Origin: Eubacteriales bacterium
Lineage (GTDB): Bacteria; Bacillota; Clostridia; Oscillospirales; CAG-272
NCBI GenBank assembly: GCA_045632225.1
Contig: JAZQWE010000001.1
Span: 1 to 26,650, forward strand
DNA: 26,650 nucleotides
Direction of reading: 5' to 3'
A model generated the notes under the pieces. It was not told the DNA's origin. It saw only the letters and a program-made list of their open reading frames with translations, and ran no database searches. Within the stretch, counting starts at the first letter, position 1; every line of letters starts with the position of its first letter. The translations under genes were made by a program, and so were the position numbers. Of this stretch, positions 5,642-10,698 are shown piece after piece.

Positions 5642-8167
5642 ATGAAAAAAATTCTTTGTTTAGTACTTGCGGCAGTAATGCTTCTTTCCACTACCGCTTT
5701 TGCGGCAGATGTACTGCTTATTGCACCTAATCCCAATGCTGTAAAGGCGACAACCGTTACCGCTGACAATGCGGCAAATGCGCTTCATGCGCTTGGACTT
5801 TTGGCGGGCGTTGGCAACAATGCAGACGGCACAGTAAACTTTGCAACCGAAGGTAGCCTTACCCGTGCACAGTCAATCACTCAGGTTGTGCGTTTCCTCG
5901 GCGCTGAAAAGGATGCAACTTCCACCACAAATGCGCATCCCTTTACCGACCTTGCTTCTTGGGCTGTTCCCTACATCAGCTACGCCTATGCAAACGGCAT
6001 TACCGCAGGTGTAAGCGCAACCAAGTTTGACGGCGACAGCGCAATGAGCGATTTTGCATTCCTCACTGCAATTCTCCGTGTGCTCGGTTACAAGGATGCA
6101 GAGGGCGATTTCGTTTGGAACAACCCCTATGACCTTGCAAAGAGTGTTGGTCTTATCAACACCACAACCGCTGATACCACCTTTACCCGCGGCGATGCAT
6201 TTGTTATTTGCTACAATGCGCTCACCGCTAAAGTTAAGAGCGGCGATGATGTTGCAACACAGCTTATCGCAAAGGGACTTTTCACAAAGTCACAGTTTAA
6301 CACCGTTATGGGAATTGAAGAAGAGGTTCTTACTCCCGTTGTTCCCGAAAATCCCGAAACCAAACTTTTGACCATTGATAAACTTGTGCAAAAGAGCACA
6401 AACGGTGACCACAAGGATGACGATATCACTACCGCATCCCTTGAAATTAATTACCGTGAAAATGTTGAACTCAACTCCGCGCTCACCGGTAGCAACCGTT
6501 ATGACAATGCGTGGTATCCCCGTATCAAGCAGGTAAAGGATGACCTTTACATTATGTTCTGGATGTACGGTCAGCTTGGCAGACATCTCTATGTTTCATA
6601 TTCAAATGACGGCAAAGAGTGGACAGCACCCGAAGTTTTCTGGGGCGCTGATAACTCAAAGAAAATTACTCATACATACGGCCCGCTTGAGGGTAAAGAG
6701 GACCAGATGCTTGCAGTAAATGCAGATGCATGTGTACTTGATAACGGTGACATCCTCTGCGTTTATGCACTTCGTCCCAGCTCCGGCTACAACTACGCGG
6801 AATATGCAGAACTTAACGGTATCTTCATGCGTCGCGGTACTGTTGGCGCTGACAATAAGATAACATGGTCCGAGGAAACACAGGTTACCAAGGGGCAGGT
6901 TTGGGAGCCTTTCATCTATCAGAGAGAAGACGGACAGATTGAACTTTATTGGTCTTGCGCAATTGCATACATTGATATGTACGGCTTTGACTCCATTAAG
7001 CGCTCCACTTGTACTTCTATGGTAGTTTCCAATGACAACGGTTATACATGGTCGCCCGCAACTGTTAAGGAAAACCATTATGTAGCAACACGCGTATATC
7101 AGGAATATGTAGGCGACAAGATTCCTTACGGCACAAATGAGGATGGTACCCCCAAGTATACCGAGGCAGTTCCGTACTTTGGCGGTCAGATGCCTTCTGT
7201 AACTCAGCTTTACAACGGCAAGGCACTCCTTGCTGTAGAAGTTCACTTGGTTAAGTATAGCAAGGACGAGTCCGATGTATATCATCTCTCCCTTGCGCGC
7301 AGTGACGAAAACGGCAATTGGAAGCCGCTGGAACTTCTTGAAGAAAAGAAAGACGATGTACTTGTTGCCCCCTTCGCAGGTGAGGCTGCCGCTCCCTATC
7401 TTGCCCGTTTTAAGTCCGGTGAAGTAGTGCTTAGCTACACCGCAAAGGGACTCCATGCAAGAATGGTTAGTCCCGATGGCACAAAGGTAGACTCAAAGCA
7501 ATTTTCTATAGTGCCCGATGCAAAGGGTTCTTGGGGCTCAACAGAAATGCTTAACAGCCACAAAATCGCGGCGACCAATATTAAAACCGGCGATAAGCGT
7601 GCAATTTGCATCACCTATTCCTACCTCAACCATCGCACAAATGCACCTAAAGTTGCGGTAAATGTTGACGGCTATACCAATGATTGGGACAACAATACCG
7701 ATGCATACTTTGTAGGTAGCGAAACTCAGGCGCAGATCAATGTGCGCACCGCTCATGACAATGACAATGTATACTTCCTTATCACCCGCGCAGATACATA
7801 CCTTACCGAGGGTGATACCGCTTCTGTAAGCGTTGCAACAAGTGCGGCAAGTTATTACCGCATTACAACTGCTGTTGACGGCACTCTTACCATTGAATAT
7901 CTTGAAAACGGTTCTGTAAAGAAAACCGTTAGCGGCGGAAGTGCTGTTGCAAAGGTATTCGGTACAGTTGGCAACAACGAGGATAAGGACGAGGGCGTTG
8001 TAATTGAGATTTCCGTTCCCAAGGCGCTTGTGGGTCTTGACGGTGTATCCTCATACAAGATTTGTCCTTCGCTTTCAAATCAGGACGGTGTTGGTTCCAC
8101 AAACGATACTCTTACCGGTGTGAGCGTGTTCACAACCAACCGTTGGCCAAGCGTAGTTCTTGACTAA
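5642..8167 (+). CDS. Secreted modular paralog: signal peptide, SLH-like domains, Asp-box beta-propeller (GH93-like motifs), C-terminal CBM9/DOMON-like domain
   Basis: Signal peptide MKKILCLVLAAVMLLSTTAFA. SLH-like motifs LTRAQ, FTDLASWAVPYISYAYANGITAGV and FTRGDA. Asp-boxes YSNDGKEW and SNDNGYTW. Motifs WYPRI, VWEPF, GQMPSVTQLYNGKALLAVE. RBS AAGGAG; starts 12 nt after the upstream stop. Confidence 0.82.
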   Translation: MKKILCLVLAAVMLLSTTAFAADVLLIAPNPNAVKATTVTADNAANALHALGLLAGVGNNADGTVNFATEGSLTRAQSITQVVRFLGAEKDATSTTNAHPFTDLASWAVPYISYAYANGITAGVSATKFDGDSAMSDFAFLTAILRVLGYKDAEGDFVWNNPYDLAKSVGLINTTTADTTFTRGDAFVICYNALTAKVKSGDDVATQLIAKGLFTKSQFNTVMGIEEEVLTPVVPENPETKLLTIDKLVQKSTNGDHKDDDITTASLEINYRENVELNSALTGSNRYDNAWYPRIKQVKDDLYIMFWMYGQLGRHLYVSYSNDGKEWTAPEVFWGADNSKKITHTYGPLEGKEDQMLAVNADACVLDNGDILCVYALRPSSGYNYAEYAELNGIFMRRGTVGADNKITWSEETQVTKGQVWEPFIYQREDGQIELYWSCAIAYIDMYGFDSIKRSTCTSMVVSNDNGYTWSPATVKENHYVATRVYQEYVGDKIPYGTNEDGTPKYTEAVPYFGGQMPSVTQLYNGKALLAVEVHLVKYSKDESDVYHLSLARSDENGNWKPLELLEEKKDDVLVAPFAGEAAAPYLARFKSGEVVLSYTAKGLHARMVSPDGTKVDSKQFSIVPDAKGSWGSTEMLNSHKIAATNIKTGDKRAICITYSYLNHRTNAPKVAVNVDGYTNDWDNNTDAYFVGSETQAQINVRTAHDNDNVYFLITRADTYLTEGDTASVSVATSAASYYRITTAVDGTLTIEYLENGSVKKTVSGGSAVAKVFGTVGNNEDKDEGVVIEISVPKALVGLDGVSSYKICPSLSNQDGVGSTNDTLTGVSVFTTNRWPSVVLD

Positions 8168-8266: not shown

Positions 8267-9643
8267 ATGGAACCTAAACTCAACAAAAAATATGGGTTGT
8301 TTACTGCTATCGCCATGGTCGTTGGCATAGTAATAGGCAGCGGCATATTCTTCAAAGCACAGGACATTTTGACTAAAACAGGCGGCGACCTTGTTCCCGC
8401 AATTCTCGCATGGGCGGCAGGCGGCCTTATCATGATGGTTTGCTGTCTTGCATTCTCTTTTATGGCAACCAAATACGAAAAAGTCGGCGGCGTGGTTGAC
8501 TATGCAGAGGCAACCGTTGGCTCGGGTTACTCCTATTTTGTTGGCTGGTTTCTTGCAATGATTTACATGCCTGCAATCACCGGCGTGCTTGCATGGGTAA
8601 GTGCAAGATATGCAGTTGTATTTATCAACTCCGTTTATCCCGGCTTTGCCGAAAATCCCGTTACAGGTCCTGAGTGTATGGTGCTTACGCTTGTTTTCAT
8701 GGTCGGCGCGTATGCGCTAAACACCCTCGCTCCCCGTATCGCGGGCAAATTTCAGGTAGCGGTAACCGTTATCAAGCTCATTCCCCTTGTTCTCATGGCT
8801 GTTGTCGGCGTTATCGTCGGTATTGCAAACGGAACTCTTTCTGAAAATCTTGCGGTGTCTGCAAATGTTTCTGCAGGCGGCGACCGTCCGCTTCTTTTCT
8901 TTACTGCGCTTGTTTCAACCGCTTTTGCGTATGACGGATGGATAATTTCCACAAGTATCAATGCAGAACTCAAGGATGCAAAGCGCAATCTCCCCATCGC
9001 ACTTTCAATCGGTTCTCTCATTGTTGTACTGATTTGCGTTTTCTACAATATCGGACTTGCGGGTGGTGCAAGCGTTGCAGACCTTGCAAATGATGCAAGC
9101 AAGGCATTTGCAAACATCTTTGGCGGTAGCGTTGGTGCTATTCTCAATCTCTTTGTTGCGCTTTCTTGTCTTGGTACGCTCAACGGTCTTATGCTTGCCT
9201 CCACAAGAACAACTTATGCGCTTGCGGCAAGAAATATGGGCATGAAGCCGCAGATGTTTAAGACTATTGACGAAAAGACCAACATACCTTCAAATTCCTC
9301 TATTGTGGGACTTTTGCTTGCAATGTTCTGGTTCCTCTATTTCTATGCGGGCTCGCTTGCGGGATGGTGCGGTAGTTACGGCTTTGATGCTTCCGAGCTT
9401 CCCATTATCACCCTTTATGCGCTCTACATTCCGATTTTCATTATGTTTATGAAAAAGGGCAAGGAATTTGGCGTTTTCAAGCGTTTTATAGTTCCCTTGC
9501 TTGCAACTCTTGCAAGTTTGTTTATGATTTATGCAACCGCTATTTCACACGGTATAACAGTTGTTTATTATCTCATTGTGTTTGTGATAATCATGATAGC
9601 AGGCTTTGCGGTAAATGCCAAAAATAAAAAGTCGACTCTTTAG
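8267..9643 (+). CDS. APC-family amino acid permease
   Basis: TM1 motif GIVIGSGIF, TM6 motif FAYDGW, about 12 hydrophobic segments, RBS AAAGG. Confidence 0.9.
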   Translation: MEPKLNKKYGLFTAIAMVVGIVIGSGIFFKAQDILTKTGGDLVPAILAWAAGGLIMMVCCLAFSFMATKYEKVGGVVDYAEATVGSGYSYFVGWFLAMIYMPAITGVLAWVSARYAVVFINSVYPGFAENPVTGPECMVLTLVFMVGAYALNTLAPRIAGKFQVAVTVIKLIPLVLMAVVGVIVGIANGTLSENLAVSANVSAGGDRPLLFFTALVSTAFAYDGWIISTSINAELKDAKRNLPIALSIGSLIVVLICVFYNIGLAGGASVADLANDASKAFANIFGGSVGAILNLFVALSCLGTLNGLMLASTRTTYALAARNMGMKPQMFKTIDEKTNIPSNSSIVGLLLAMFWFLYFYAGSLAGWCGSYGFDASELPIITLYALYIPIFIMFMKKGKEFGVFKRFIVPLLATLASLFMIYATAISHGITVVYYLIVFVIIMIAGFAVNAKNKKSTL

Positions 9644-9880
9644 CGTTGCCGCGCAACGCAGTGAAGTCTAACGCTTTGCGTTAGGTGAAGTCGCTTTGCG
9701 GTCAAGTATTTGATACTCAAATGTGAAGTATCCGTGTCCCACGGATATAAAAGAAAAGAACGGTTCGCAATTTGCGAACCGTTCTTTTCATTCATGTTCA
9801 TTTATTAACACTTCACTCGTTACTTGTAACGAACTTCACATGCCCCAAGGCATACTTCACACACCGAAGGTGTACTTCGT
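9643..9880. repeat. Mirrored array of GTGAAGT heptamers separated by unrelated short hairpins, flanking a central terminator
   Basis: + strand heptamers at 9661, 9685, 9701 (GTCAAGT) and 9723. Reverse-complement ACTTCAC at 9810, 9833 and 9854, partial ACTTC at 9874. Every inter-heptamer spacer is a perfect palindromic stem (see findings). Confidence 0.85.
9753..9789. terminator. Bidirectional terminator (perfect 18-bp inverted repeat)
   Basis: GAAAAGAACGGTTCGCAA-t-TTGCGAACCGTTCTTTTC between convergent genes. Confidence 0.85.
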
Positions 9881-9909
9881 TGGAACAGCGACAATCAGGC
9901 GCGGTTCCT

Positions 9910-10638
9910 TTATATAAACTTCATTACCAAATCAAAAATTATCGGCATAAATATTGCGGGGAGCATGTTGCCCACTTTGATTTTGATAAAACCGAGCATA
10001 TTTACGCCGATTGCGAAAATCAAAATCGAGCCGGTGAATGACATTTGAGAGATTACAGCGCTTGTGAGAAATGGCTCAATGTAAACGCCGAGGAGGGCGA
10101 TGGCGCCCTGATATAAAAAGACTGGGACAGCGGAGAACATAACGCCGATGCCGAGAGTTGATGCAAGCACCACCGATGTAATACAGTCGATTACGCCCTT
10201 TGCAACAAGGGTGGAGTCATCGCCGCGAATACCGTTGTCAAGAGAGCCGACAACAGCCATTGCGCCAACCACAAAAATCAGCGATGCTGTTACCATGCCT
10301 TCGGCAAATGTTGATTTTGAGTCTTTTTTTACAAGTTTGCTTTGGCAGAATGCACCGAAACGGTCAAGCTGTTTTTCAATGTTGATGAGTTCGCCCACCG
10401 TGGTACCAAACACCATTGCCAAAATCATAATAAGAGTGTCGCGCGTGCCAAATGCGCCGTTTTCGTATGTAAGGGTGGCGCTGACAGCACCGCCGATACC
10501 CACAAACATAACTATCAGTCCCACGGCTTGGAGCAAGGTGTCTTTAAGTCGCTCGGGCAATATTTTTTTAAACAAAAGTCCGCAAAGAGAGCCGACTACA
10601 ACTAAAATCGCGTTGATTATTGTTCCTGAAAGTGCCAT
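9910..10638 (-). CDS. DUF554 family membrane protein (YdfK-like)
   Basis: GTIINAILVVVGSLCG, GTTVGELINIE, FVVGAMAVVGSL, KGVIDCITS, LGIGVMFSAVP. Start moved to ATG 10638 (RBS AGAGG) because a promoter lies inside the longer ORF-track version. Confidence 0.85.
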   Translation of the reverse strand: MALSGTIINAILVVVGSLCGLLFKKILPERLKDTLLQAVGLIVMFVGIGGAVSATLTYENGAFGTRDTLIMILAMVFGTTVGELINIEKQLDRFGAFCQSKLVKKDSKSTFAEGMVTASLIFVVGAMAVVGSLDNGIRGDDSTLVAKGVIDCITSVVLASTLGIGVMFSAVPVFLYQGAIALLGVYIEPFLTSAVISQMSFTGSILIFAIGVNMLGFIKIKVGNMLPAIFMPIIFDLVMKFI

Positions 10639-10669
10639 AAAACCTCTAAAAATATATAAAGATAGAAAG

Positions 10670-10698
10670 ATTATACCACCGCGATGGCGCAAAGTAAA
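10670..10698 (-). promoter_or_regulatory. Sigma-A promoter for the DUF554 gene
   Basis: Minus strand TTTACT (10693-10698), 17 nt, TGg-TATAAT (10670-10675). Confidence 0.65.

What the first reader, a model, noticed from the sequence alone, without database searches (positions are those of the whole stretch)
9643..9880. Mirrored heptamer-plus-variable-hairpin array around a bidirectional terminator
Seen: after the permease stop the + strand reads hairpin GCGTTGC-cgc-GCAACGC, then GTGAAGT (9661), CTAACGC-ttt-GCGTTAG, GTGAAGT (9685), CGC-ttt-GCG, GTCAAGT (9701), ATTTGA-tac-TCAAAT, GTGAAGT (9723), ATCCGTG-tcc-CACGGAT. A 37-bp palindrome follows (9753-9789), then the mirror arm: ACTTCAC (9810), TCGTTAC-tt-GTAACGA, ACTTCAC (9833), ATGCC-ccaa-GGCAT, ACTTCAC (9854), ACACC-gaa-GGTGT, ACTTC (9874). 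The linker is conserved while the stems are mostly unrelated in sequence yet all perfectly paired, which points to selection on structure plus a fixed motif. Both arms point inward, so each convergent mRNA would carry GUGAAGU-hairpin repeats in its 3' UTR. On the ACTTCAC strand three loops are GNA triloops (GGA, GTA, GAA) and two are AAA. Established: GNA triloops form unusually stable ssDNA mini-hairpins, and REP/IS200-IS605 ends are short motif-plus-hairpin units read by HUH nucleases. Inference: an unnamed REP/BIME-like repeat family or a multivalent protein-binding RNA/ssDNA scaffold. It is not CRISPR, since the repeat is only 7 nt and the spacers are palindromic.
Basis: partly seen in the sequence, partly recalled or inferred. 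Interest (0 to 1): 0.8.

Follow-up and report, generated by a model that had tools for sequence, protein, structure and literature searches.

The report
Orphan Gut-1 hairpin-array element
The mirrored rows of small hairpins joined by the word GTGAAGT are real; they form a diverged, inserted copy of the catalogued but unexplained 'Gut-1' repeat of gut Clostridia, and my comparisons suggest it is a mobile binding platform for a small Avd-like protein, not a REP element or a classical small RNA.

Summary
Window 9640-9909 holds nine flush, perfect hairpins joined by GTGAAGT on the left and by its complement ACTTCAC on the right, around a 17-bp-stem bidirectional terminator. Strict arrays of this kind occur 6 times in the genome and 0 times in each of three shuffles.

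It is not unnamed. The right arm aligns end to end with Rfam Gut-1 (RF01706) at 36.7 bits, below the 50-bit cut-off. Relatives carry up to 37 arms, most of the listed matches above the cut-off. This scan has met the family before on other DNA.

- **Layout:** arms are always convergent, and the heptamer type always matches between the two arms of an element.
- **Strand:** loops are C-GNA-G or GNNA on the ACTTCAC-reading strand (142 to 3), which is opposite to Rfam's orientation. G.U pairs are nearly absent.
- **Insertion:** ten congeners have only a plain terminator at the orthologous permease-DUF554 site, so this copy was inserted.
- **Homologue:** a unit-by-unit homologue in a congener has all eight heptamers switched to ATGAAAT, with compensatory stem changes.
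- **Transposase and RT:** Y1/RAYT and reverse-transcriptase genes do not co-distribute with the arrays.
- **Avd-like protein:** PF05635 genes do co-distribute. 21 of 60 have an array just upstream, and heptamer type tracks the protein clade.

The leading model, a protein-binding scaffold that disperses like a MITE, is inferred and not shown.

The parts
9640..9909 (.). The whole inserted element, about 270 bp. It fills the entire space between the permease stop codon and the DUF554 stop codon. Its first four bases, TTAG, supply the permease stop codon.
   Evidence: Ten congeners have only a short plain terminator at the orthologous site. The element aligns unit by unit with C322 and with G002 L024 over this span, and both homologues that reach the left end begin with TTAG.
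9643..9746 (+). Left arm. It has five flush perfect hairpins (9643-9659, 9668-9684, 9692-9700, 9708-9722, 9730-9746). They are joined by GTGAAGT at 9661, 9685 and 9723, and by the variant GTCAAGT at 9701.
   Evidence: The variant heptamer reads GTGAAGT in the C322 copy.
9753..9789 (.). Central bidirectional intrinsic terminator, with a 17-bp stem and a 3-nt loop.
   Evidence: One search reports it as terminator-like on both strands, with the clearer T-run on the - strand. Compensatory G-C to A-T changes are seen in C322.
9790..9809 (.). Unpaired linker, CATTCATGTTCATTTATTAAC-like, conserved between homologous copies.
   Evidence: conserved with few changes in C322 and G002 L024.
9810..9880 (-). 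Right arm. On the + strand it reads ACTTCAC at 9810, 9833 and 9854, and the variant ACTTCGT at 9874. Between them lie hairpins 9817-9832, 9840-9853 and 9861-9873. Read on the - strand it is the Gut-1-like array.
   Evidence: Rfam Gut-1 match at 9805-9882 (-): 36.7 bits, E 8e-6, model positions 1-77 of 77.
9882..9908 (.). Terminal hairpin, GGAACAGCG-acaatcagg-CGCGGTTCC, with one A.G mismatch. It marks the right end of the element.
   Evidence: The hairpin is perfect in C322 and carries a compensatory A-T to C-G change in G002. Similarity between the window and C322 ends just after it.
8267..9643 (+). Flanking amino-acid permease gene. It is not part of the element, but the element supplies its stop codon.
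   Evidence: Pfam AA_permease_2, E 4e-43. The C-terminus differs from that of the orthologues.
9910..10692 (-). Flanking DUF554 gene, convergent with the permease. It is not part of the element.
   Evidence: Pfam DUF554, E 1e-74. Orthologues were found in 17 of 18 congeners.

Best explanation
**What it is (shown).** This is a two-armed, roughly 270-bp copy of the Gut-1 hairpin-array element, in a GTGAAGT variant. It was inserted in this lineage between the convergent permease and DUF554 genes. It brings its own bidirectional terminator, which now takes the place of the plain terminator found at this site in relatives.

**How it most likely works (inferred).** The heptamers are recognition words for a small pentameric Avd-like protein of family PF05635. 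In this genome that protein is encoded on contig C79, next to an array with the same GTGAAGT word.
- The flush hairpins fold on the strand that reads ACTTCAC, as C-GNA-G or GNNA mini-hairpins. They space and present the heptamers.
- Each arm therefore offers 4 to 5 sites on its own strand, and the two arms form a two-fold symmetric pair.
- Next to the protein's own gene, the array abuts the promoter or the ribosome-binding site and probably autoregulates it.
- Copies such as this one are orphans that spread like MITEs into terminator regions. There they are tolerated because they carry hairpins or a terminator.

Whether the bound nucleic acid is extruded or single-stranded DNA, or RNA read opposite to Rfam's orientation, is not resolved.
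For: **Identity**
- The right arm aligns full-length to RF01706.
- 27 of 41 relatives have matches and 19 score above the cut-off.

**Insertion and mobility**
- 10 of 10 congeners that keep the permease-DUF554 pair have only a plain terminator there.
- A second copy, C322, has a different right flank.
- Contigs often break at arrays.
- Two related copies lie inside split terminator stems.
- Near-identical PF05635 proteins occur in different taxonomic families.

**The heptamer as a recognition word**
- Arm heptamer types were concordant in 19 of 19 detected pairs, across 5 heptamer types; a sixth type (ATGATTT/AAATCAT) was seen by eye.
- All 8 heptamers are switched from GTGAAGT to ATGAAAT in the unit-by-unit homologue of G002, while the stems change compensatorily.
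- Deviant heptamers are not compensated across arms (64 uncompensated against 5 compensated). Concordance is therefore not explained by pairing between the arms.

**Strand**
- Loops are G..A on the AYWTCAY-reading strand 142 times and T..C 3 times, and the closing pair is C-G.
- Wobble pairs number 16 on that strand against 6 on the other.

**Protein link**
- The C79 ORF scores 82 bits against PF05635. It matches PDB 2RLD, which has 5 chains, at E 2e-22. It lies 19 nt downstream of a GTGAAGT/ACTTCAC array.
- Co-distribution across the 41 genomes: both present 22, arrays only 5, protein only 3, neither 11. Among the 16 genomes that each represent a separate family, 6 of 8 array-positive and 0 of 8 array-negative genomes have the protein.
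- 21 of 60 PF05635 genes have an array within 450 nt upstream, against a rough background estimate of 1% (order of magnitude only, not computed).
- The -35 box often abuts the last heptamer.
- Heptamer type needs 11 changes on the protein tree. The minimum possible is 10, and shuffled labels need 12 to 15.
Against: - No binding or expression data exist. The one possibly-RNA run gave only fragmented contigs that break in the array.
- Only 4 of 53 GTGAAGT arrays in reference genomes have a PF05635 gene within 8 kb.
- The commonest orphan type, GTGAAAT, often lacks a same-type protein-linked array in its own genome, for example in G006, G020 and G036. G006 has 37 arms but only one PF05635 gene was found, in a genome 84% complete.
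- Five array-positive genomes lack the protein and three array-negative genomes have it.
- The match between protein clade and heptamer type could reflect co-inheritance of linked DNA and not recognition.
- The C79 protein does not cluster with the other GTGAAGT-linked proteins; it sits on a long branch.
- No target-site duplication and no mobilising enzyme were identified.
- Four protein-linked copies have the opposite arm orientation or flank the gene.
Confidence: 0.45

Rival explanations
1. Sense-strand RNA element, which is Rfam's reading. On this view the GUGAAGU-hairpin arrays are transcribed as the 3' UTRs of the two convergent genes, or as small RNAs. They would either shield the mRNAs from 3'-exonucleases or titrate an RNA-binding protein.
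For: - In the window and in G002 L024, each arm lies between a stop codon and the shared terminator in the GUGAAGU sense.
- Solo arms in G006 follow stop codons in the sense orientation and end in a hairpin.
- Weinberg et al. 2010 rated Gut-1 as a likely RNA.
Against: - Loop asymmetry of 142 to 3 places the stable G..A loops on the opposite strand.
- Internal G.U pairs on the sense strand number only 6 in about 420 hairpins, which is atypical for an RNA helix family.
- 24 of 58 two-armed copies lie behind the strong terminator of a tRNA or tmRNA gene.
- Next to PF05635 genes, the gene-proximal arm reads antisense on the coding strand in 16 of 20 cases.
Confidence: 0.2
2. A purely selfish MITE-like repeat with no host function. 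On this view the heptamers are binding sites for an unidentified mobilising enzyme, and the PF05635 gene is passenger cargo.
For: - Presence/absence polymorphism at the orthologous site.
- Copies with different flanks.
- Up to 37 arms per genome, and contig breaks at arrays.
- Horizontal spread of linked units.
- Some copies lie on viral contigs, 9 of 119 pattern hits.
Against: - No transposase lies in or beside the elements.
- Y1_Tnp and RVT_1 do not co-distribute.
- No target-site duplication was found.
- Split-terminator flanks occur in only 2 of 61 elements.
- Strict maintenance of flush Watson-Crick stems and G..A loops across families argues for selection on the fold.
Confidence: 0.2
3. 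Ladder of multi-way junctions. On this view one strand carrying both arms pairs GTGAAGT with ACTTCAC, and the hairpins become branches of a long rod, for example an RNase III substrate.
For: The minimum-free-energy fold of 9640-9912 is exactly this ladder, with z -12.3 as DNA and -8.4 as RNA. The arms always carry complementary heptamers.
Against: - Deviant heptamers are uncompensated 64 times and compensated 5 times.
- The arms usually have unequal numbers of heptamers.
- About a third of arrays are solo arms.
- In this copy a strong terminator lies between the arms.
- In some copies a gene separates the arms.
Confidence: 0.07
4. REP/REPIN-type element mobilised by a RAYT (Y1 HUH) transposase.
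For: It consists of short motif-plus-hairpin units in inverted doublets, lies in intergenic DNA, and is multi-copy.
Against: - PF01797 was not found in the high-copy genomes G005, G006, G010, G027 and G036. It is present in the zero-copy genomes G007, G011, G016 and G019.
- The palindromes differ from unit to unit, unlike REPs.
- This genome has only about 5 loci.
Confidence: 0.03

Closest known systems
Gut-1 RNA motif (Rfam RF01706; Weinberg et al. 2010, Genome Biol 11:R31, PMC2864571)
   Same: Both consist of consecutive small hairpins joined by a 7-nt RUGAWRU word. The right arm aligns to the model over positions 1-77. Both come from gut Clostridia. The flanks of the authors' own alignment show the same mirrored second arm.
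   Different: - The score is 36.7 bits against a cut-off of 50.
- The heptamer is GTGAAGT, not GTGAAAT.
- This copy has a central terminator and lies between protein genes, not behind a tRNA.
- Rfam models one arm as a small RNA. The loop bias found here points to the other strand and to a two-armed element roughly 180-270 bp long.
REP / BIME / REPIN elements with RAYT transposases
   Same: Both are intergenic, multi-copy, hairpin-forming units, often in inverted doublets near terminators.
   Different: - In REPs the palindrome is conserved and the linkers vary. Here the linker is conserved and the palindromes vary.
- There is no co-distribution with Y1 HUH genes.
Bacterial MITEs that carry hairpins or terminators (Correia, BOX, RUP, ERIC; from general knowledge)
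   Same: Both are small and non-coding, show presence/absence polymorphism, occur as several copies with different flanks, have inverted-repeat architecture, and can provide terminators.
   Different: - No terminal inverted repeat of conserved sequence, no target-site duplication and no cognate transposase were found.
- The arms are arrays of a 7-nt word plus unrelated hairpins.
Avd of diversity-generating retroelements, and the PF05635 '23S rRNA intervening-sequence protein' family (PDB 2RLD)
   Same: The linked protein belongs to this family. From general knowledge, Avd is a basic pentameric four-helix-bundle protein that binds nucleic acid.
   Different: - No reverse transcriptase accompanies it here.
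- No nucleic-acid ligand is known for stand-alone PF05635 proteins.
Heptad-repeat operators of ribbon-helix-helix regulators such as omega of pSM19035 (WATCACW; recalled from memory, not tested)
   Same: Both are arrays of a 7-bp word in direct and inverted orientation next to promoters. Some Gut-1 types read ATATCAC.
   Different: The omega heptads are contiguous, with no hairpin spacers, and the protein family is different.

Membership tests
Gut-1 RNA motif (RF01706) | Covariance-model score at or above the curated gathering threshold of 50 bits | tested here: not met
   The right arm scores 36.7 bits and the left arm 15.3 bits. The other loci of this genome score 46.3, 42.3 and 30.3 bits. 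Congeners reach 95 bits.
Gut-1 RNA motif (RF01706) | Three consecutive hairpins separated by a conserved 7-nt linker, aligned over the full model | tested here: met
   The alignment covers model positions 1-77 of 77, with all three stems and all linkers placed.
Gut-1 RNA motif (RF01706) | Functions as an RNA transcribed in the GUGAAAU sense | tested here: inconclusive
   No usable RNA data were available. Loop bias of 142 to 3 and wobble bias of 16 to 6 favour the opposite strand.
REP/REPIN with RAYT | Co-occurrence with a Y1 HUH (RAYT) gene | tested here: not met
   PF01797 was not found in 5 of the 8 high-copy genomes and is present in 4 zero-copy genomes.
REP/REPIN with RAYT | A conserved palindrome sequence shared by the copies in a genome | tested here: not met
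   There are 314 distinct spacers among about 420 hairpins. The stems within one arm are unrelated to each other.
MITE | Filled and empty orthologous sites, and copies with different flanks | tested here: met
   10 of 10 congeners have an empty site. C322 has a different right flank.
MITE | Target-site duplication and a cognate transposase | tested here: inconclusive
   No duplication could be read at the window junctions. Y1_Tnp and RVT_1 are not co-distributed. Other transposase families were not tested.
CRISPR array | Repeats of about 23-50 nt with non-palindromic spacers of similar length | tested here: not met
   The repeat is 7 nt and the spacers are 9-23 nt flush palindromes.
Intrinsic terminator (central palindrome only) | A G+C-rich stem followed by a T-run | tested here: met
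   The stem has 17 pairs, 8 of them G-C. It is reported on both strands, and the T-run is clear on the - strand.

The most novel reading that the evidence does not exclude
The heptamer-hairpin arrays are the specific nucleic-acid ligands of stand-alone PF05635 (Avd-like, '23S rRNA IVS protein') pentamers. On this reading:
- Each protein clade reads its own 7-nt word, presented between C-GNA-G mini-hairpins on one strand of extruded or single-stranded DNA.
- Protein gene and array form a horizontally mobile unit that seeds orphan copies into terminator regions.
- Rfam's Gut-1 would be annotated on the wrong strand and as the wrong molecule.
- A large protein family with no assigned function would gain one.
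Probability: 0.3. Interest if true: 0.75.

Novelty: new variant of a known kind. Interest (0 to 1): 0.5.

Why it matters
Gut-1 has stood in Rfam since 2010 with no known function. PF05635 proteins are widespread and also have no assigned function.

This report adds several points:
- Gut-1 arms are halves of a larger, two-fold symmetric element that is prone to insertion.
- The folded strand is probably the one opposite to Rfam's annotation.
- The 7-nt word changes in concert across a whole element.
- The word tracks the clade of a neighbouring Avd-like protein.

Together these give a direct bench test: protein against array, strand by strand. The test could assign a function to both the motif and the protein family.

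For this particular window, the practical meaning is modest. The permease and DUF554 genes are terminated by an acquired repeat element in place of the ancestral terminator.

Tried and rejected
- **RAYT/Y1 HUH co-distribution:** rejected.
- **Reverse-transcriptase co-distribution, to test a retro-mobility idea:** rejected. There is none in G000, G005, G006, G027 or G036.
- **Inter-arm heptamer pairing ladder:** it folds well, but deviations are not compensated.
- **Insertion into terminator loops as a general rule:** only 2 of 61 two-armed elements have clearly complementary terminator-like flanks, which is not above mismatched-flank controls.
- **Strict 'cognate protein gene in every genome' rule:** it holds in G000, G001, G010, G013, G014 and G015 but fails in G006, G020, G031 and G036.
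- **RNA evidence:** no confirmed RNA run held the stretch. The Logan contigs of four runs are fragmented and drop out across the left arm.
- **Generic scans:** a scan for chains of any 4-bp hairpins, and a scan for any hexamer repeated three times, were too noisy to use.
- **Bare pattern scans of public collections:** they are unspecific. Only 53 of 120 genome hits and 9 of 119 viral hits pass the hairpin criterion.
- **Literature searches:** searches for Gut-1 and PF05635 found no functional study.
Full report
**Observation.**
- After the permease stop codon (TAG, 9641-9643) come five flush, perfect hairpins. They are joined by GTGAAGT at 9661, 9685 and 9723, and by GTCAAGT at 9701.
- A palindrome with a 17-bp stem follows at 9753-9789. 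It scores as an intrinsic terminator on both strands.
- The mirror arm follows, with ACTTCAC at 9810, 9833 and 9854 and ACTTCGT at 9874, separated by three more hairpins.
- One further 9-bp-stem hairpin lies at 9882-9908, directly against the DUF554 stop codon at 9910.

The element therefore fills the whole 266-nt intergenic space between two convergent genes, which one search identifies as AA_permease_2 and DUF554.

The pattern is far from chance:
- GTGAAGT occurs 10 times in the window against 2.55 expected.
- Arrays of at least three heptamers in which every spacer is a flush hairpin occur 6 times in the 1.9-Mb genome. Each of three dinucleotide-preserving shuffles of the whole genome gave none.

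**It is a described family.** A scan against Rfam aligns 9805-9882 (- strand) end to end with Gut-1 (RF01706). Its consensus is hairpin-GUGAAAU-hairpin-GUGAAAU-hairpin. The score is 36.7 bits (E 8e-6), below the curated 50 bits.
- Weinberg et al. 2010 found Gut-1 only in human-gut metagenomes, rated it a likely RNA, and gave it no function.
- The flanks in their raw alignment already show the mirrored second arm, for example GUGAUAU units followed by AUAUCAC units.
- In 41 relatives, 27 genomes have matches and 19 score above the cut-off, with up to 37 arms per genome. Many matches lie at contig ends.
- Notes from this scan show that other agents met the same family in at least 22 other genomes. 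I took leads from those notes and tested them myself.
- The window's genome is a 359-contig assembly. Its DNA is held by bovine, sheep and other animal gut metagenomes.
- Its other array loci are C322 (a near copy of the window element), C79, C176 (ATGAAAT type) and C224 (ATGAATT type). Three of these touch contig ends.

**Anatomy of the family.** I fetched about 100 loci from relatives and parsed 108 unique arrays.
- Every detected arm pair is convergent, 19 of 19.
- 67 of 96 arrays have reverse-complement heptamers within 230 nt downstream, and 0 of 96 have them upstream.
- The heptamer differs between elements: GTGAAAT, GTGATAT, ATGATAT, ATGAAAT, GTGAAGT, ATGATTT and others. It always matches between the two arms of one element. 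Several types coexist in one genome.

Three layouts recur:
- Two arms directly behind the terminator of a tRNA or tmRNA gene. 24 of 58 two-armed elements are of this kind, after 14 different RNA genes.
- Solo arms of four units behind a stop codon.
- Two arms around their own bidirectional terminator between protein genes. This is the window's layout, also seen in G002 L024 and G005 L115.

**Which strand folds.**
- Of 314 unique spacers, 270 are end-to-end perfect hairpins. Triloops dominate and are closed by C-G.
- On the strand that reads GTGAAAT, loops run T..C 142 times and G..A 3 times. The complementary strand, which reads ATTTCAC, therefore carries C-GNA-G triloops and GNNA tetraloops.
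- From general knowledge, these are the classes known to be unusually stable, notably as DNA mini-hairpins.
- Internal wobble pairs are rare, 22 in about 420 hairpins. They favour the same strand 16 to 6.
- This asymmetry shows that the hairpins matter as a folded single strand. That strand is the opposite of Rfam's orientation.
- The near-absence of G.U pairs is unlike a typical RNA helix family.

**This copy is an insertion.** The DUF554 orthologue was found in 17 of 18 congeners. In the ten that keep the permease neighbour, the intergenic space is a plain terminator and holds no array.
- C322 carries the same element with a different right flank.
- G002 L024 is homologous unit by unit. Against these copies the stems show compensatory changes:
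  - ATTTGA/TCAAAT to ATTTGC/GCAAAT
  - CTAACGC/GCGTTAG to CTGCCGC/GCGGCAG
  - GGAAC.GCG/CGCGGTTCC to GGCACCGCG/CGCGGTGCC
- All eight heptamers are switched together from GTGAAGT to ATGAAAT. A concerted change of this kind points to a shared reader or to homogenisation, not to independent drift.
- L024 and L115 lie between the two halves of a terminator-like stem (15 and 10 nt). This is not general.

**What reads it.**
- Y1 HUH (RAYT) genes do not co-distribute with arrays.
- Reverse transcriptases do not co-distribute either.
- PF05635 genes do. Counts across the 41 genomes are: both present 22, arrays only 5, protein only 3, neither 11. Among the 16 genomes that each stand for a separate family, 6 of 8 array-positive and 0 of 8 array-negative genomes have the protein.
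- In the window's own genome, the single PF05635 gene (C79:10204-10563; 82 bits; PDB 2RLD with five chains) starts 19 nt after a GTGAAGT/ACTTCAC array.
- Of 60 PF05635 genes in relatives, 21 have an array within 450 nt upstream and 8 have one downstream. The gene-proximal arm reads AYWTCAY on the coding strand in 16 cases and the sense type in 4.
- In several cases a TTGAAA-17-TATAAT promoter abuts the last heptamer. In others only a ribosome-binding site follows.
- On the protein tree, heptamer type needs 11 changes. The minimum possible is 10, and shuffled labels need 12 to 15. Near-identical proteins occur in different taxonomic families.

**Limits of that link.**
- Most arrays are orphans. 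Only 4 of 53 GTGAAGT arrays in reference genomes, all of them Clostridia, have the gene within 8 kb.
- The commonest orphan type often has no same-type protein-linked array in its genome.
- Linked inheritance could explain the match between protein clade and heptamer type.
- Pairing between arms is not the explanation for concordance. The ladder fold is the computed optimum, but deviant heptamers are uncompensated 64 to 5 and arm sizes differ.

**Verdict.** The finding is real and well described. It is a diverged, orphan, inserted member-like variant of the known Gut-1 family, not a new family and not a REP/RAYT system. The best-supported mechanism is a multivalent, strand-specific binding scaffold for an Avd-like PF05635 protein that disperses like a MITE and supplies terminators. 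That mechanism is inferred from comparative evidence only. It needs the binding and transcript experiments listed under next steps.

Noticed in passing
G000 contig C79:10021-10563 (outside the window): A GTGAAGT x3 / ACTTCAC x4 array lies between a 423-aa ORF and a 120-aa PF05635 (Avd-like) gene, all on one strand. No promoter or terminator lies between them, so here both arms would sit in a single transcript.
   Followed up: yes
window 9620-9643: The element's first bases (TTAG) provide the permease stop codon. The last residues of the permease (…KNKKSTL*) differ from those of the orthologues (…KNKKAA*), so the insertion remodelled the 3' end of the gene.
   Followed up: partly
G000 contigs C224:2470-2518, C176:2076-2239, C322:1-251: Three further array loci (ATGAATT, ATGAAAT and GTGAAGT types) lie at or run into contig ends, so the assembly breaks at these repeats. 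The true copy number in this genome is probably higher than 5.
   Followed up: partly
L009 (G013:C17), about 260 nt before the array: The 3' end of the tmRNA gene (CCGCCTCCACCAGAAA) is duplicated about 130 nt apart just upstream of a Gut-1 element. This looks like the attachment-site scar of an integrated or excised island.
   Followed up: no
L091, L133, L130, L127, L119 (upstream of PF05635 genes): A -35-like TTGAAA or TTGACA box starts 0-8 nt after the last heptamer and is followed 17 nt later by a -10 box. A factor bound at the last heptamer would therefore touch RNA polymerase.
   Followed up: partly
L130 (G026) and L131 (G013): Nearly identical PF05635 proteins (branch lengths 0.04-0.06), each with a GTGAAGT-type array, occur in genomes of different taxonomic families. 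This suggests recent horizontal transfer of the gene-array unit.
   Followed up: no
L139, L151, L157, L122, L124: In some loci the two arms flank the PF05635 gene instead of preceding it. Further heptamer types occur there (ATGAATT, GGTAAAT, GCGATAT, GCTAAAT), and Rfam's model would probably miss them.
   Followed up: no
IMG/VR loci L316, L331, L334, L359, L396, L411, L417, L422, L425: Nine viral or proviral contigs carry true GTGAAAT hairpin arrays, two of them mirrored. The element therefore sometimes travels on phage-like DNA.
   Followed up: no
window 5642-8167: A large ORF (841 aa) upstream of the permease has weak SLH and BNR-repeat matches. It is probably a cell-surface protein.
   Followed up: no
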